Assembly (NCBI RefSeq): GCF_009914755.1 | Contig: NC_060928.1 | Direction: 5' to 3' (one strand) | Source: the human T2T-CHM13v2.0 reference genome, Homo sapiens | DNA: 64,000 nt | Shown: in pieces, positions 2,937 to 47,268 of the stretch | Numbering within the stretch: position 1 is the first letter of the stretch | Layout of the letters: every line of letters begins with the position of its first letter | Made by a program: the position numbers and the translations under genes | Notes under the pieces: generated by a model | Database searches by the model: none | Told to the model about the DNA's origin: nothing | The model's input: only the letters and a program-made list of their open reading frames with translations

Positions 2937-3033
2937 CTATGTTTGCCATACTGTCTTTATTGATGGAATCACTTATGTATGTGCTACAGACAATGCTTTG
3001 GATTCTGTGACACCATCTGCATTTCTTAAAAAC
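2937..3033 (+). pseudogene. VAMP9P: VAMP9P exon A (longin domain, central strands), 97 nt
   Basis: Acceptor ttttcttttcaaag, donor gtaagt; 1 nt + 32 codons YVCHTVFIDGITYVCATDNALDSVTPSAFLKN, resembling VAMP7 YLFHYICQDRIVYLCITDDDFERSRAFNFLNE. Confidence 0.88.
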
Positions 3034-4642
3034 GTAAGTAATTTTATTGTACTGTAAGGACTTTTTGAGTTACTGAAATTGTGAGGTCTCTGCTTTATAG
3101 TTTATTAGTAGTAGTGTGCTAACCAAAAGCAGCTCACTCACCTGCTATATGTAAAGCAGAGCCATTCATGACCTTCAGAGATTTATTACCTGCATCACTC
3201 ATCTGGCTCGTGTTTCCATACTTCGCCTGGCCCTAAAGTAAGGCCTGCAAAGATCATCCACTCAGATTTATTAGAACCTCTCCTTATATTTATTTTGTTT
3301 TAAAATTAAGAAAGAAATTAAGCTACTCTAGTGTTTAATATACTTTTTCAATGGCACATGTACTTAATTTACAAAGTATGTATGTGAGGAGGTAAGTGAT
3401 CAAAAATTTTTTAGATCGGTAGTCTAAAGACACTTGTGTTAAAGTATATATATCAATTAGAAGAGTTAATCAAAAAATGTTTTTTAAATCAAGACATACC
3501 ATCTCTAGGGAAAGTTTTAACTGACAATAGCCAGCATGTCTAAACTATGATAAACAGAGTACTTTTGTGTATGTATTTATGTAGATACATAAGATTTTTA
3601 TAAATATCTTAAAAGGTGATTAACCTTCTCACTAGATATCACCTGCTGCTCATAGCATCCTGAGTGTGATCTCTGAGCAGAAGGAGAGTTCATGAAACGC
3701 AGTCTTTGAGACAGACTAGAGCCAAACCGTTATTCTGGTAATTTTATGGTTCAAATAGTGTGACTGTTTCTTATTTTAAAAAGTAAATTATACTAATCTT
3801 CAAATTACTTATAAATATATAATTCAGGATAAATATTTTAGTAAAAAATATTAATGCGAAAATTAGTCAGCTATACTATAGTTACCAATGTAGTAGTTAT
3901 TTGCCAGTCACATTCATGAATCATGCATATATTTTCTGTTTAATATATCTGCTTGCTTTAACCCAATTCAAACTAATATAGAGTTAAAGGCTATAAGGCC
4001 TAAATATTAAAATTAACTCCACAATTATGCCTAGAAAATTGCCAGAGTCCAGATGTTAAACACTGTAAGTCATTTTAGCTTAATGTACTGTAATTTTTTT
4101 TCTTTTCTATGTATTATGACAAAACATCCCAACTCTGTAACCTTTCCAAAACTAGGTAACACAACATTACTAACCATGTCATTTTTACCACTGCTTCTGA
4201 GAAATTCATTAAGTACTTCTATTAAGACATTTATTTAGCATTGTTTCATTATTGTTGAATGGATTTTGAGGGTATGGGTGAGAGAGGAAAATGAAAGCAC
4301 TATTTTAAAAATACCATAAAATTCCATCTTTCCTTGTCTGCCAGAGGTAAACATCTGTTCTTCCCCTCAAGTCCTCAGATATATCAAGGAATAGCACCTG
4401 CAATCATACTGTATGAGGTTCTAATCTGTACAACAGCAGCGTGTAAGACTGGGACAAACACGGTGTTTATGAATATGCCATCTTTAAATGGAAAGGATGC
4501 CCTGCCACCAAAAAGCCAAAAATGATGTGTTTTCTTTTATTTTTCAGGATTCTGCTAGACTTTGCTTCAAATGAATGTTTGTTCTATAATTCTCCAGTTA
4601 AAATGATCTATATAGGTTAAATAGTTCCATTAATTTCTCCAG

Positions 4643-4744
4643 ATTAGTGATACTTTTACAAGAAATCCTTTGATGTCACAAGAACATTTTTCTCCTTCAA
4701 ATGCATTTGCTGCAGATTTTCAACAAGTGTTAGGAAAGTAAATG
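4643..4744 (+). pseudogene. VAMP9P: VAMP9P exon B (longin C-terminal helix), 102 nt, premature TAA
   Basis: Acceptor tttctccag, donor gtatgt; ISDTFTRNPLMSQEHFSPSNAFAADFQQVLGK*M resembles VAMP7 IKKRFQTTYGSRAQTALPYAMNSEFSSVLAAQL; phase 0 at both ends, matching the neighbouring exons. Confidence 0.85.
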
Positions 4745-4785
4745 GTATGTAACCTCAAACTGTATTCCTAAGTATTACCAGTTTT

Positions 4786-43800: not shown

Positions 43801-46559
43801 ATACTGGGGATGGCTTGCTGACCAGTAGGGAATTTGTCCCTTTCTTCAGCTGTCATTCTATCATTTACTTGACTAAGATACCAGGTGTCTCCAAATTCTT
43901 GGGTTGCAGCTAAAGCCACATTCTTTTCATTAAAGGTCAGGATTTGATCTAATAGCATGACATCTCTCCAAGTGAGGTCAAAGGCTTTCCCTAGACCCTG
44001 TAGGACATCTATGTACTTAACAGGATCATCTTAAAGCTTCCCCAGGTCTACCTTGATCTGCTTTAAATCAGAGAGGGAGAAGGGACATGTACCCAGGTTG
44101 GGCCAAATTCCCCTCCCCCTACAGCTTGAAGGAGACACAACCAATAGCCCAGGGGTTTTTGTAGTCCTTTGGAGATTTTTTGCTTGTTTCCTTCTGGGTA
44201 GGGGAGATTAAAGGAGACTTACCATTAATAGGAAGGGGAGCTATAGGGAGGCTAGGATATGGGGGTAAGCTGAGAGGTCCTCCTGTGGGATGTAAATTGC
44301 AAGCTTTGCGTAGTTGTGGATGCTCCTTCAATGAAAAGAAAGCTTGGACATAAGGTATTTTACTCCATTTGCCTTCCCTCTTACAGAAAAGGTCAAGCTG
44401 CAGGATAGTATTGTAATTTATACTTCCCTCAGGTGGCATTTTTCCCCATCAGAGAGAATACTGGGGCCAAGCCATAGTGCAGAAAAAAATGAGCCACCTC
44501 TTTTTCAGAGTTTGCAGGTCAAATTGGTCCCAATGGCTTAGGATGCATTTCAAGGGTGAGCCTGTTGGTTCCTGAGTGTTTCCCATCTGAAAGAAAAAAC
44601 CACCCACAGTTTTGGTTTGTTTCCACCTCCGCCCAAGAACCCGCAATGGTCCCTGGACCCTGCTAATCAGAATAGTTGCGCTCACCGACACAGCAGCAGA
44701 AGCACCAGTTTTCCTCCTAGACCACAAGGAGGACCGAGGAAGGTTGGATTTAGTGGCCCTTAGCAACACATTCTCAAAAATGTGCACCTTGCCTGTCCTC
44801 CTAGACCACAGAGGACCAAGAAAAATCGGATTTAATGGCCCTTACCAATGCATTCTCGAAAACCTGCACTCTTGCCTGTCCTCCTAGACCACAAAGAGGA
44901 CTGAGAAAAATCGGATTTAGTGGCCCTTACCGATGCATTCTCGAAAACCTGTTAGAGTCCTAAGCATTCTCCTGTTAGTATTGGGACTTTACCCCTGTCC
45001 TATAAAGATGTTATGCCCCAAAAATGAAGGGGAGGGCCATACCCTGAGGGAGGGAAGGGATCTTCAAGGTTGGAAATGTGACACCTTTTGTCCTCACTTG
45101 AATAGGAAGGATATCATTTCTGAAGCTCCCCATATCCTAGCTTCAAGAATAGCTTTTGTTAGGCCTGCTAGTCTGAGGAGGGATCCTAAAATTCCAGATG
45201 GTCCCACCCCCCAGATGGGGCTTTGGGCAAAAATTATGTCTTTCTGATTGGTGAGCCCGGGTGCCTAAAGAAGGGAACAAAGTCCTGAGGTTTATACTAG
45301 AAATCATTATTATAGGAGAAACTAGAAAAGCACCAGAGACAGGGAGTGGTTTTTAGAAGTGGGACTAGCCTCAAAGAAGAGAGGCAAGAGGAAGTTTGTC
45401 TGACAGGCATTAGGATCCAGGAGGCAAGGGTCAGGATAGATAGGATAGATGGGTGAGTCTCGCTTGGGCAACATGACTTTGAGAGTTCCACTTATGGCCG
45501 CAGGGTCAACCAACTTGTTGTCGGGACCCTGGAGCTGAATGGCTTCCCTCTCTGTCAACCCTTGGCTCAGCCCAGAAGTACAGGAAAAGCGGAAGCTGGT
45601 TCCAGGCAAACCAACACTCCCAACTCCGAAGAGTCGGGGATTGTTAGAGAGCCCTTTCCCAGAAAGCCTGACACCCGTGTCTTTAGTCCGGTGGCTGCAC
45701 TAGTCGCTTTTAACTGGCCAACAGGTGCCTGGTATTTAGCCTCCAAATTCTAAGGAAAAATAGGACAGAATAGCAAGCGAAAGGGGTCCAATAGCACTCA
45801 CCACTTGGTGACAGTCCCAGCTGGTTTGCCAAAATGCGTCCGGAATTTATTCCTTCTGGTGGGCTCTTGATCTCGCTGACTTCAAGAATGAAGCCGCAGA
45901 CCATTGTGGTGAGTGTTACAGCTCTTAAAGATGGTGTGTCCAGAGTTTGTTCCTTCAGATGTTCAGATGTGTCTGGAGTTTCTTCCTTCCCGTGGGTTCA
46001 TGGTCTCACTGACTTCAGGAGTGAAGCCGCAGACCTTCACAGTGAGTGTTACAGCTCTTAAAGGTGGCATGTCGGAGTTGTTTTTTCCTCCCGGTGGGTT
46101 CTTGGTCTCACTTCAGGAATGAAGCCTCAGACCCTCGAGGTGAATGCTGGAGCTCATAAAGGTAGTGCAGACCCAAAGAGTGAGCAGCAGCAAGATTTAT
46201 TGTGAAAAGTGAAAGAACAAAGCTTCTACAGCATGGGAGGGGACCCAAGAGGGTTGCTGCTGCTGGCTGGAGTGGCCAGCTTTTATTCCTTTATTTGCCC
46301 CTGCCCATGTCCTGCTGATTGGTCCATTTTACAGAGCGCTGATTGATCCATTTTACAGAGTGCTGATTGGTGCATTTACAAACCTTTAGCTAGACAGAGA
46401 GCGCTGATTGGTGCATTTTTACAGAGTGCTGATTGGTGCATTTACAATCCTTTAGCTAGACACAGAGTGCTGATAGGTGCATTTACAATCCTTTAGCTAG
46501 ACAGAAAAGTTCTCCAAGTCCCCACTCAACCCAGGAAGTCCAGCTGGCTTCACCTCTCA
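40872..46559 (-). mobile_element. HERV9/LTR12-type provirus, internally deleted: 5'LTR 45835-46559, gag remnant ~43040-44590, RNase H scrap, env TM remnant, 3'LTR 40872-41582
   Basis: Two LTRs TGAGAGGTGAAGCCAGCTGG...CA with tandem CCAATCAGC repeats; tRNA-Arg-like PBS TGGCAAACCAGCTGGGAC; gag MHR QGKEENPSAFLKRLREALRKYT; env LQNHRGLDLLTA; PPT; flanks share CTA(T). Confidence 0.94.
42290..42665. repeat. CT/AG-rich low-complexity tandem expansion inside the provirus
   Basis: Repeated tgactttctgtctcttcctctctttccttc units. Confidence 0.9.
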
Positions 46560-47130
46560 CTATTATCACAATTTTATAGATTTATGTATTCATTCATTCA
46601 ACAAACACTTATTGAACATCTGCTGTCCGTCATGCACTGTTCCATGCTGGGACTACAGCAGTAAATGAAACACAAGAATCCTTGCCTCCATGGAGCTTAT
46701 ATTCTAGACAAACAATAAATAAAATTTACCTAATGTTAGTTAAGAGGTAAGTACTGTGGAGAAGAACTAAGTATTGAAGGAGAATAGGGTTTTCAGAATA
46801 GAAATGGAGGTAGCAATTATTGTAAGAGATGATAGCATTTAAGTAAAATCATACAGGAAGATGAGGAAATTGAGGCTAAAAGAATTATAACTTGTTCAAG
46901 GTCACAGAGCTAATAAGGCTAATAAAATTACAGCTGAACACAACAAGGCAGCTGCCTGGAACCTTGATGCATCACTTTATAAAAATCTGTTGAATCCTAT
47001 TAAGAGGTTTTAGGATTCGTCAAAATAAAGCTACATCTGTTCTTTCAGATAGCTCTGAGAAGTATTAGAGTGTGCACATTAATCCAGAAATGGAAGTAAA
47101 ACATGACATTTGTATTTATTTTTATTTCAG

Positions 47131-47268
47131 GCCAAAGAATTCCAAAAAACAAGAAAGATTCCTAGGAGGATTTGGTAGAAATACTTCAAAAAGATCATAA
47201 TTATCACCATTGCAATCCTCCTTTCAATTATTATCATTCTTTTAAGTACAAATGTAATACCAACATGA
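47131..47268 (+). pseudogene. VAMP9P: VAMP9P terminal coding exon D (juxtamembrane + TM anchor), premature TAG
   Basis: Acceptor tttatttttatttcag; AKEFQKTRKIPRRIW*KYFKKIIIITIAILLSIIIILLSTNVIPT*; TGG-TAG sits at the VAMP WWK motif; likely ancestral stop TGA at 47266-47268. Confidence 0.9.

What the first reader, a model, noticed from the sequence alone, without database searches (positions are those of the whole stretch)
2937..47268. Hidden four-exon longin R-SNARE (VAMP7 paralog) gene, disabled in this genome
Seen: four exons missing from the ORF track have compatible phases and give longin domain, synaptobrevin motif, basic WW linker and TM anchor in order. The reading frame has no frameshift, only two nonsense codons. 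Known: this is the VAMP7/TI-VAMP architecture, and I recall the locus as VAMP9P with an intact Vamp9 beside Hnrnpd in mouse. Inference: the large introns and strong divergence from VAMP7 point to an ancient paralog lost fairly recently (a unitary pseudogene), meaning other mammals may keep a poorly studied membrane-fusion component.
Basis: partly seen in the sequence, partly recalled or inferred. Interest (0 to 1): 0.85.

Follow-up and report, generated by a model that had tools for sequence, protein, structure and literature searches.

The report
Dead human VAMP9 SNARE gene
This is the already named human pseudogene VAMP9P, a membrane-fusion (SNARE) gene that most other mammals keep intact, and its last two exons lie far beyond the span given in the RefSeq gene table supplied with the finding.

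Summary
Exons at 2937-3033, 4643-4744, 27580-27738 and 47131-47268 (+) match intact 213-214 aa mammalian proteins in order. Two further exons lie 7.7 and 2.2 kb upstream of the window. Together they give a 214-codon frame with ATG, GT-AG at every junction and no frameshift. Only two nonsense codons break it: TAA at codon 115 and TAG at codon 185.

The locus is annotated as VAMP9P. HGNC named it for its orthology to rodent Vamp9, so the identity is already known.

Three points go beyond the supplied annotation.
- The SNARE-motif and membrane-anchor exons lie outside the RefSeq span.
- VAMP9 does not group with vertebrate VAMP7 (AU p 0.0047). It nests among invertebrate 'VAMP7-like' longins. In tail sequence, exon structure and neighbouring genes it resembles VAMP8. 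That link is suggestive, not proven.
- The zero-layer arginine is absent in 25 of 48 intact orthologues, and the SNARE exon is their least conserved part.

The date of the loss is open.

The parts
2937..3033 (+). Coding exon 3 (codons 50-82), core of the longin domain. Coding exons 1 and 2 lie outside the window and cannot be listed as parts. Exon 1 is at chr4:85614299-85614376 (window -7701..-7624; codons 1-26, ATG intact, GT donor). Exon 2 is at chr4:85619750-85619820 (window -2250..-2180; 71 nt; its last two bases plus the first base of exon 3 give Ser50).
   Evidence: Exon 3: (Pfam Longin E 0.0029, below cut-off); also a RefSeq exon. Exons 1 and 2: (E 7.5e-12 at 85% and E 1.2e-9 at 87% to colugo residues 1-26 and 27-49)
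4548..4642 (+). Extra 5' part of the RefSeq exon 4548-4756. This upstream acceptor is not the ancestral one. Read in frame from exon 3 it gives 8 codons and then TGA
   Evidence: (sequence read by eye) and the supplied gene table. The orthologues' exon 4 aligns from 4643
4643..4744 (+). Ancestral coding exon 4 (codons 83-116), end of the longin domain. AG at 4641-4642, GT at 4745-4746, last codon ATG
   Evidence: (E 3.1e-15, 83% to colugo)
4739..4741 (+). Nonsense codon 115, TAA, where 29 of 41 placental orthologues have Tyr
4737..4742 (+). Hexamer AGTAAA that includes the nonsense codon, 14 nt before the RefSeq transcript end at 4756. It is a possible variant poly(A) signal. This is inference; that AGTAAA acts as such a signal is recalled, not tested
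   Evidence: (sequence) and the supplied gene table (exon end 4756)
4758..10710 (-). Near full-length, decayed L1 retrotransposon in antisense orientation in intron 4. Its T-rich tail end begins about 13 nt after the exon 4 donor
   Evidence: Pfam L1 ORF1 domains at 8897-9526(-) (E 7.4e-61), endonuclease at 8216-8845(-), reverse transcriptase at 6634-7431(-). for the junction. Extent taken from the supplied repeat mask
27580..27738 (+). Coding exon 5 (codons 117-169, 159 nt, phase 0 at both ends): the SNARE motif. Not in the supplied RefSeq table
   Evidence: Nyv1 2.1e-7, VAMP8 1.8e-6, VAMP7 6.1e-4; Synaptobrevin 1.5e-10
27685..27687 (+). Zero-layer codon 152: AAA (Lys) where canonical R-SNAREs have Arg
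   Evidence: Alignments; counts
47131..47268 (+). Coding exon 6 (codons 170-214 plus TGA): basic linker, WW pair, membrane anchor, tail ending NVIPT. Not in the supplied RefSeq table
   Evidence: Synaptobrevin profile positions 48-86, E 0.0023; E 8.7e-19
47176..47178 (+). Nonsense codon 185, TAG, where 39 of 41 placental orthologues have Trp. The Rhinopithecus model P0002 still has WW here

Best explanation
The window holds the last four of the six coding exons of VAMP9P. This is the human unitary pseudogene of VAMP9, a tail-anchored SNARE with an N-terminal longin domain.

In species that keep the gene, the 213-214 aa protein would be expected to work as follows (inferred from family membership, not shown). 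It sits in a vesicle membrane by its C-terminal anchor. It zippers its SNARE motif with three Q-SNARE helices. Its longin domain regulates or sorts it, as in VAMP7.

In humans two nonsense mutations (Tyr115 to TAA, Trp185 to TAG) rule out a full-length protein. Annotated transcripts end at 4756, just after exon 4, so the SNARE-motif and anchor exons are probably no longer in the mRNA (inferred). At most a 114-residue longin-only peptide could be made. With the RefSeq acceptor at 4548 it would be 90 residues.
For: Shown here.
- Gene model: six collinear exons, 645 nt, 214 codons, ATG, all junctions GT-AG, stops only at codons 115, 185 and 215.
- Family: Synaptobrevin and Longin Pfam hits on the human exons. 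Both hits are above cut-off on the orthologues (colugo 64.5 and 31.9 bits).
- Orthologues: 154 proteins at E <= 0.001 of 344 candidates, 120 listed. They span placentals, marsupials and a turtle.
- Uniqueness: the only 5 matches in the human genome at E <= 0.001 are exons of this locus (16 candidates scored).
- Similarity: the human conceptual protein is 84.9% identical to dolphin and 84.4% to colugo.

In print or in the supplied annotation.
- RefSeq lists the locus as VAMP9P, a transcribed pseudogene.
- HGNC named it for orthology to rodent Vamp9.
Against: - Only one human haplotype (T2T-CHM13) was read, so I cannot say whether both stops are fixed.
- The frame is unusually clean for a pseudogene. 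There are no indels, every splice site is intact, and the root-to-tip protein distance is 0.134, third lowest of 41 placental tips. Residual function of a truncated product, or a very recent loss, is therefore not excluded.
- The function of intact VAMP9 was not tested by me. The paper that described it (Chocu et al. 2014) is not held.
Confidence: 0.95

Rival explanations
1. The locus is not dead but makes a short functional product. This would be a longin-domain-only peptide (codons 1-114) from transcripts that end after exon 4.
For: - The first stop falls at the very end of the longin domain. Colugo residues 1-118 align with the solved VAMP7 longin domain 2dmw.
- The locus is annotated as transcribed.
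- Exon 1 is the most conserved exon among placentals (0.912 mean pairwise identity).
- ATG and splice sites are intact.
- The human branch is not lengthened.
Against: - The RefSeq models use the acceptor at 4548, which gives a stop after 8 codons and cuts the longin domain at residue 82.
- Human departs from the placental orthologues at 7 near-invariant positions, the nonsense at codon 185 included. This is the second highest of 42 rows. Five of the seven lie in exons 1-3 (T4M, A19T, Y53C, L56V, L64V).
- No protein evidence was seen.
Confidence: 0.06
2. It is a polymorphic or very young pseudogene: one or both stops still segregate, and some people carry a working gene.
For: - Only one haplotype was read.
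- There are no frameshifts in 645 nt.
- The human protein distance from the placental root is as low as in species with an intact gene.
- A snub-nosed monkey model (P0002) has exons 5 and 6 open, with WW intact.
Against: - There are two independent nonsense codons.
- HGNC and RefSeq call it a pseudogene on their own assemblies (and the supplied table).
- No full-length primate model is among the 120 proteins listed. The tarsier model P0036 lacks exons 1-3 and the Rhinopithecus model holds exons 5-6 only.
- Human and Rhinopithecus differ at 9 of 98 positions in exons 5-6, the stop included. By recalled genome-wide figures that is high for a constrained gene.
Confidence: 0.05
3. It is a dead duplicate of VAMP7 rather than a separate, once functional gene.
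For: The domain order is the same, and VAMP7 is the best full-length solved match.
Against: - Large introns and a position beside HNRNPD, as in cattle.
- Many intact orthologues.
- Only 25-26% identity to vertebrate VAMP7.
- VAMP7's SNARE stretch is split over two exons where VAMP9 has one.
- The clade VAMP9 plus vertebrate VAMP7 is rejected, log-likelihood difference 69.85, p-AU 0.0047.
Confidence: 0.01

Closest known systems
Rodent Vamp9 and mammalian VAMP9 (HGNC/VGNC name; first described by Chocu et al. 2014, Biol Reprod 91:123, cited; paper not seen)
   Same: Orthologous, with the same length and domain order and the same exon boundaries as far as skipped-exon isoforms show. Mouse P0071 (214 aa) is 65.9% identical to the human conceptual protein.
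   Different: The human copy has two nonsense codons. Its annotated transcripts stop after exon 4.
VAMP8 (endobrevin)
   Same: - Manta-ray VAMP8 (P0353) and mole-rat VAMP8 (P0354) both end in ATGVIPT, as turtle VAMP9 does.
- Human VAMP8 exon 2 and VAMP9 exon 5 are each 53 codons, phase 0 at both ends, and each follows an exon that ends in ATG.
- Both genes lie upstream of, and on the opposite strand to, a Frag1/TMEM150-family gene. The distance is 18 kb on chromosome 2 and 150 kb on chromosome 4.
- They group together in the tree of the SNARE motif plus anchor, with SH-aLRT 86-91, unstarred.
   Different: - VAMP8 has no longin domain and keeps the canonical Arg-Gly at the zero layer.
- A tree holding VAMP8 with VAMP3-type brevins is not rejected (p-AU 0.217), so the sister relation is not proven.
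VAMP7 (TI-VAMP)
   Same: Longin domain, SNARE motif and membrane anchor in the same order. It aligns end to end with colugo VAMP9 (residues 1-176 to 2-176).
   Different: - 25-26% identity.
- It falls in a different, well supported clade (99*).
- Joint monophyly is rejected.
- It has an extra intron inside the SNARE motif.
Invertebrate 'VAMP7-like' longin SNAREs (amphioxus P0278, hemichordates P0316 and P0317, Capitella, Lingula, Octopus, Strigamia, Ixodes; source names)
   Same: Amniote VAMP9 nests inside this clade of 28 rows, support 96*. The tail motif is similar.
   Different: These keep a canonical zero layer (Arg invariant in 20 of 20 and the next Gly nearly so). Mammalian VAMP9 often does not.

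Membership tests
Synaptobrevin/VAMP SNARE family (Pfam PF00957) | SNARE coiled-coil motif recognised by the family profile above its curated cut-off | tested here: met
   human exon 5 alone scores 41.2 bits (cut-off 26.4), E 1.5e-10, on profile positions 3-45. Exon 6 continues at positions 48-86; colugo 64.5 bits, mouse 48.7, turtle 106.8.
R-SNARE in the residue sense | Arginine at the central zero layer of the motif | tested here: not met
   Human codon 152 is Lys. Of 49 rows (48 orthologues plus human; 4 partial or alternative isoforms dropped), 23 have R, 12 S, 11 K (human included), and I, N and T occur once each. It is an R-SNARE by descent, not by residue.
Longin SNAREs | N-terminal longin (profilin-like) domain before the SNARE motif | tested here: met
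   Pfam Longin is above cut-off in colugo (31.9 bits), mouse (27.0) and turtle (33.8). Human exon 3 alone scores 17.9 bits, below cut-off. Colugo residues 1-118 align with the solved VAMP7 longin domain. The joined human sequence was not scanned; the report says why.
Tail-anchored SNARE | Single C-terminal hydrophobic anchor after a basic linker | tested here: met
   Exon 6 translation (read-out) shows a basic linker, W-stop in place of WW, about 20 hydrophobic residues and a short tail. It matches Synaptobrevin profile positions 48-86. No dedicated membrane-helix predictor was run.
Unitary pseudogene | Disabled reading frame at the ancestral locus, with introns kept | tested here: met
   Two nonsense codons in a six-exon frame spread over 55 kb.
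Unitary pseudogene | No functional copy of the same gene elsewhere in the genome | tested here: met
   all 5 matches of colugo VAMP9 in the human genome at E <= 0.001 are exons of this locus.
Unitary pseudogene | Intact orthologue at the syntenic position in other species | tested here: inconclusive
   Intact orthologues are plentiful. Synteny rests only on a cattle gene list that places VAMP9 within 0.5 Mb of HNRNPD, HNRNPDL, ENOPH1 and TMEM150C. No non-human genome could be read here.
VAMP8/VAMP9 pair from the vertebrate genome duplications (proposed) | Sister position in a tree, shared exon structure, paralogous neighbours | tested here: inconclusive
   Exon structure and a TMEM150-family neighbour are shared. 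Tree support is moderate and the alternative is not rejected.

The most novel reading that the evidence does not exclude
VAMP9 is the last vertebrate gene that keeps the ancestral architecture of an old bilaterian longin-SNARE lineage distinct from VAMP7. VAMP8 (endobrevin) is its sister from the vertebrate genome duplications, formed by dropping the four longin exons and starting at the Met codon that ends exon 4.

In mammals the SNARE motif of VAMP9 has drifted: the zero-layer Arg is absent in about half of the species, the Synaptobrevin score falls from 107-117 bits to 49-65 bits, and isoforms that skip the SNARE exon are predicted. Selection may therefore now act mainly on the longin domain. 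Humans, and perhaps all primates, have lost the gene.
Probability: 0.45. Interest if true: 0.55.

Novelty: already known. Interest (0 to 1): 0.3.

Why it matters
The finding itself re-identifies an annotated and named pseudogene, so it is ordinary. It still has three practical uses.

1. The supplied RefSeq model stops at 4756. It misses the two exons that encode the SNARE motif and the membrane anchor, and it uses a non-ancestral acceptor for exon 4. Anyone judging the coding potential of VAMP9P from that model would miss half of the gene.

2. Mouse, rat, livestock and most other mammals carry a fusion-machinery gene that humans lack. This bears on carrying over rodent results, for example from testis, where the rat protein was reported according to the title of the paper HGNC cites.

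3. If the link to VAMP8 holds, VAMP9 shows directly how a short 'brevin' arose from a longin SNARE. The variable zero layer in intact orthologues would then make it a natural test case for how much that residue matters.

Tried and rejected
- A strict regular expression for the SNARE zero layer found nothing relevant. The human motif has Lys-Glu where Arg-Gly is usual. A heptad scan then found exon 5.
- A first Pfam call had exon 4 one base out of frame. It was corrected.
- Exon 3 alone against solved structures gave only spurious repeat-protein matches: designed propeller proteins, summed over repeats, with no single stretch significant.
- Exons 1, 2 and 4 alone give no Pfam hit.
- Searching the genome with the VAMP7 representative P0256 was flooded by 146 matches to its tail, which I read as Alu-derived. 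It was repeated with the first 198 residues.
- The protein atlas did not tell which animals hold the VAMP7-side representatives. So I cannot say whether invertebrates carry both clades.
- The AU test could not separate 'VAMP8 with VAMP9' from 'VAMP8 with VAMP3-type brevins' (p 0.217).
- Earlier findings of this scan were not open.
- Papers not held: Chocu et al. 2014, and my guess at a PMC id for Kloepper et al. 2007.
- Searches for 'VAMP-9' found 0 papers. 'VAMP9' found 13, of which 12 were listed. I read passages in five of those.
  - Only the HGNC paper discusses the pseudogene.
  - One hit is a primer name.
  - One is an unsupported mention in a review.
- Processed pseudogene, VAMP7 duplicate and chance open frames were considered and rejected, as set out under the rival explanations.

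
Full report
WHAT IS THERE

Reading the stated coordinates showed coding-looking stretches with splice signals at 2937-3033, about 4643-4744 and 47131-47268. A heptad scan then pointed to 27580-27738. That exon alone reaches the Pfam Synaptobrevin cut-off (41.2 bits, E 1.5e-10). It also matches solved SNARE motifs: Nyv1 2.1e-7, VAMP8 1.8e-6, VAMP2 6.1e-5, VAMP7 6.1e-4 (29 sequences at E <= 1).

Used as a query against the large protein library, exon 5 returned 36 proteins at E <= 0.001 of 39 candidates. 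Among them are 213-214 aa mammalian proteins with Longin and Synaptobrevin domains. tblastn of six of these against the window hit the four exons, in order, with E between 1e-13 and 1e-30. Nothing else scored below 0.07.

Residues 1-44 of the orthologues have no match in the window. A search of the whole human genome found exon 1 at chr4:85614299-85614376 and no other locus (5 matches, all at this locus). A local search of the 10 kb upstream of the window found exon 2 at chr4:85619750-85619820.

Joined by coordinates in a script, the six exons are 78+71+97+102+159+138 = 645 nt. All junctions are AG/GT. Stops occur only at codons 115 (TAA), 185 (TAG) and 215 (the normal TGA). The four exons are the last four of six.

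WHAT IT IS

The supplied RefSeq table calls the locus VAMP9P, a transcribed pseudogene. [quoted passage not shown] Its reference 16 is Chocu et al. 2014, which is not held.

A full-length search with the colugo protein gave 154 proteins at E <= 0.001 of 344 candidates, 120 of them listed. Intact models of 212-215 aa come from:
- rodents (mouse P0071, rat P0074), lagomorphs, tree shrew and colugo
- carnivores, horse (source name 'VAMP9'), cetaceans and hippo
- bats and a shrew
- dugong and anteater
- several marsupials
A turtle gives a 217 aa model.

A cattle GWAS table lists VAMP9 with HNRNPD, HNRNPDL, ENOPH1 and TMEM150C within 0.5 Mb. The human conceptual protein is 84.9% identical to dolphin, 84.4% to colugo, 65.9% to mouse and 54.2% to turtle. 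This is a unitary pseudogene of a gene that is widely kept.

ANNOTATION POINTS

The supplied RefSeq span ends at 4756. Exon 5 (SNARE motif) and exon 6 (anchor) lie 23 and 42 kb further on and are not listed.

The RefSeq exon 4548-4756 uses an acceptor 95 nt upstream of the ancestral one at 4643. In frame from exon 3 it reads 8 codons and then TGA.

The nonsense codon TAA sits inside the hexamer AGTAAA (4737-4742), 14 nt before the annotated transcript end. From about 4758 the intron is a decayed, near full-length antisense L1, which puts a T-rich run just downstream. My inference, untested, is that these two changes make a premature poly(A) site. That would explain why annotated transcripts do not reach exons 5 and 6. 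That AGTAAA can serve as a variant signal is recalled knowledge.

RELATIONSHIP TO OTHER SNAREs

VAMP7 is the best full-length solved match of colugo VAMP9 (E 1.5e-17, residues 1-176). Sec22b (2.7e-5) and Ykt6 (2.7e-3) are weaker.

A HMMER search of 1.84 billion representatives (1885 at E <= 0.001, 16 at <= 1e-30) ranked vertebrate VAMP7 low, at about 1e-14 and 25-26% identity. I recognised it by a motif taken. It ranked behind unnamed longins of 30-37% identity. A profile search with 20 of those showed that named members come from amphioxus, hemichordates, annelids, a brachiopod, a nemertean, molluscs, arthropods, corals and a sponge. Their sources mostly call them 'VAMP7-like'.

In an IQ-TREE of 67 rows and 215 columns (short search), amniote VAMP9 (99*) plus two unnamed representatives (94) nest inside a 28-row clade of these invertebrate proteins (96*). 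Vertebrate VAMP7 lies in a separate 32-row clade (99*). Holding VAMP9 and vertebrate VAMP7 together costs 69.85 log-likelihood units, p-AU 0.0047. I could not name the animals behind VAMP7's nearest representatives. So I cannot say whether invertebrates hold both clades.

THE VAMP8 LEAD

- The same profile search returned shark and ray VAMP8 at 55-62% identity over the SNARE and anchor part.
- Ray and mole-rat VAMP8 end in ATGVIPT, as turtle VAMP9 does. Mammalian VAMP9 ends in STNVIPT.
- In a tree of the SNARE motif plus anchor only (65 rows, 96 columns; the tool itself warns that this is few), VAMP8 groups with VAMP9 and two representatives at SH-aLRT 86-91, not starred.
- Human VAMP8 exon 2 is 53 codons, phase 0 at both ends, and follows an exon ending in ATG. 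VAMP9 exon 5 is the same, and exon 4 ends in the ATG of codon 116.
- VAMP7 has that stretch in two exons. VAMP1-3 matches run across the VAMP8/9 intron position.
- VAMP8 (chr2:85581060-85583770, +) has a Frag1/TMEM150-family hit 18 kb downstream on the minus strand. VAMP9P (+) has one 150 kb downstream on the minus strand. That these are TMEM150A and TMEM150C is recalled, and for TMEM150C is supported by the cattle list.

Against this lead, a tree holding VAMP8 with VAMP3-type brevins is not rejected (p-AU 0.217). I rate the sister relation at about even odds.

AN ODD SNARE MOTIF

Among 49 rows (4 dropped as partial or alternative isoforms), the zero-layer residue is R in 23, S in 12, K in 11 (human included), and I, N and T in one each.

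Among 41 placental orthologues, mean pairwise identity by exon is 0.912, 0.740, 0.811, 0.763, 0.581 and 0.646 for exons 1 to 6. The SNARE exon is thus the least conserved and the first longin exon the most.

Synaptobrevin scores fall from 116.5 bits (unnamed representative P0149) and 106.8 (turtle) to 64.5 (colugo) and 48.7 (mouse). Gene models that skip exon 5 and join exon 4 to exon 6 are predicted in camel, anteater, guinea pig, mole, pika, buffalo and cattle. This suggests, but does not show, that in mammals selection bears more on the longin domain than on fusion.

WHEN WAS IT LOST?

For a recent loss:
- There are no indels and all splice sites are intact.
- Human has 22 differences from the placental consensus and a root-to-tip distance of 0.134. 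Both are third lowest of 41 tips (one further alternative-tail isoform, P0060, was dropped here as well).

For an older loss:
- Human departs at 7 near-invariant positions, the stop at codon 185 included. This is second highest of 42 rows, most of which have 0-3. Five of the seven lie in exons 1-3. Human is the only primate row, so its branch is unbroken and the comparison is biased.
- No full-length primate model is among the 120 listed proteins. The tarsier model lacks exons 1-3.
- The Rhinopithecus model holds exons 5-6 only, with WW intact. It differs from human at 9 of 98 positions, the stop included.

No primate DNA could be read here, so dN/dS and the age of each lesion remain open.

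LIMITS

The joined human protein could not be handed to the Pfam, fold or library tools. The family evidence for the human copy is therefore per exon, plus the orthologues. Supplements were not consulted.

VERDICT

The identity is already known. The added value is a complete six-exon model, the correction about VAMP7, and a testable lead that ties VAMP9 to VAMP8.

Noticed in passing
window 4758-10710 (-): A near full-length but decayed L1 element lies antisense in intron 4. Its tail end is about 13 nt from the exon 4 donor. Its 3' end sequence looks like a primate L1PA type, which is recalled and not classified here.
   Followed up: partly
window 4737-4756 (+): The nonsense codon TAA lies inside AGTAAA, 14 nt before the RefSeq transcript end, with the T-rich L1 tail just downstream. 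This may be a premature poly(A) site made by the same mutation.
   Followed up: no
window 62138-62203 (+): The last 22 residues of a porcupine gene model (P0088) match this stretch at 100% identity (E 4e-11). It lies in an HNRNPD intron on the opposite strand. It looks like an extremely conserved non-coding block picked up by a faulty gene model.
   Followed up: no
window 13235-13363 (+): The alternative C-terminal exon of a seal VAMP9 model (P0128) matches here in intron 4 at 50% identity with a stop (E 3.7e-7). It may be the remnant of an alternative last exon.
   Followed up: no
proteins P0098, P0102, P0103, P0108, P0110, P0111, P0124: Predicted isoforms in seven mammals skip the SNARE exon and join the longin domain straight to the anchor exon. 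The cattle model named VAMP9 isoform X2 is one of them.
   Followed up: partly
protein P0256; loci L008-L015: One VAMP7 representative carries a C-terminal tail that matched 146 places in the human genome. I read the tail as Alu-derived: an Alu exon or a read-through model.
   Followed up: no
L006:2160-2298 (chr4:85614160-85614298): The stretch just upstream of the exon 1 ATG is G+C- and CpG-rich, like a CpG-island promoter. This fits the 'transcribed' label of the pseudogene.
   Followed up: no
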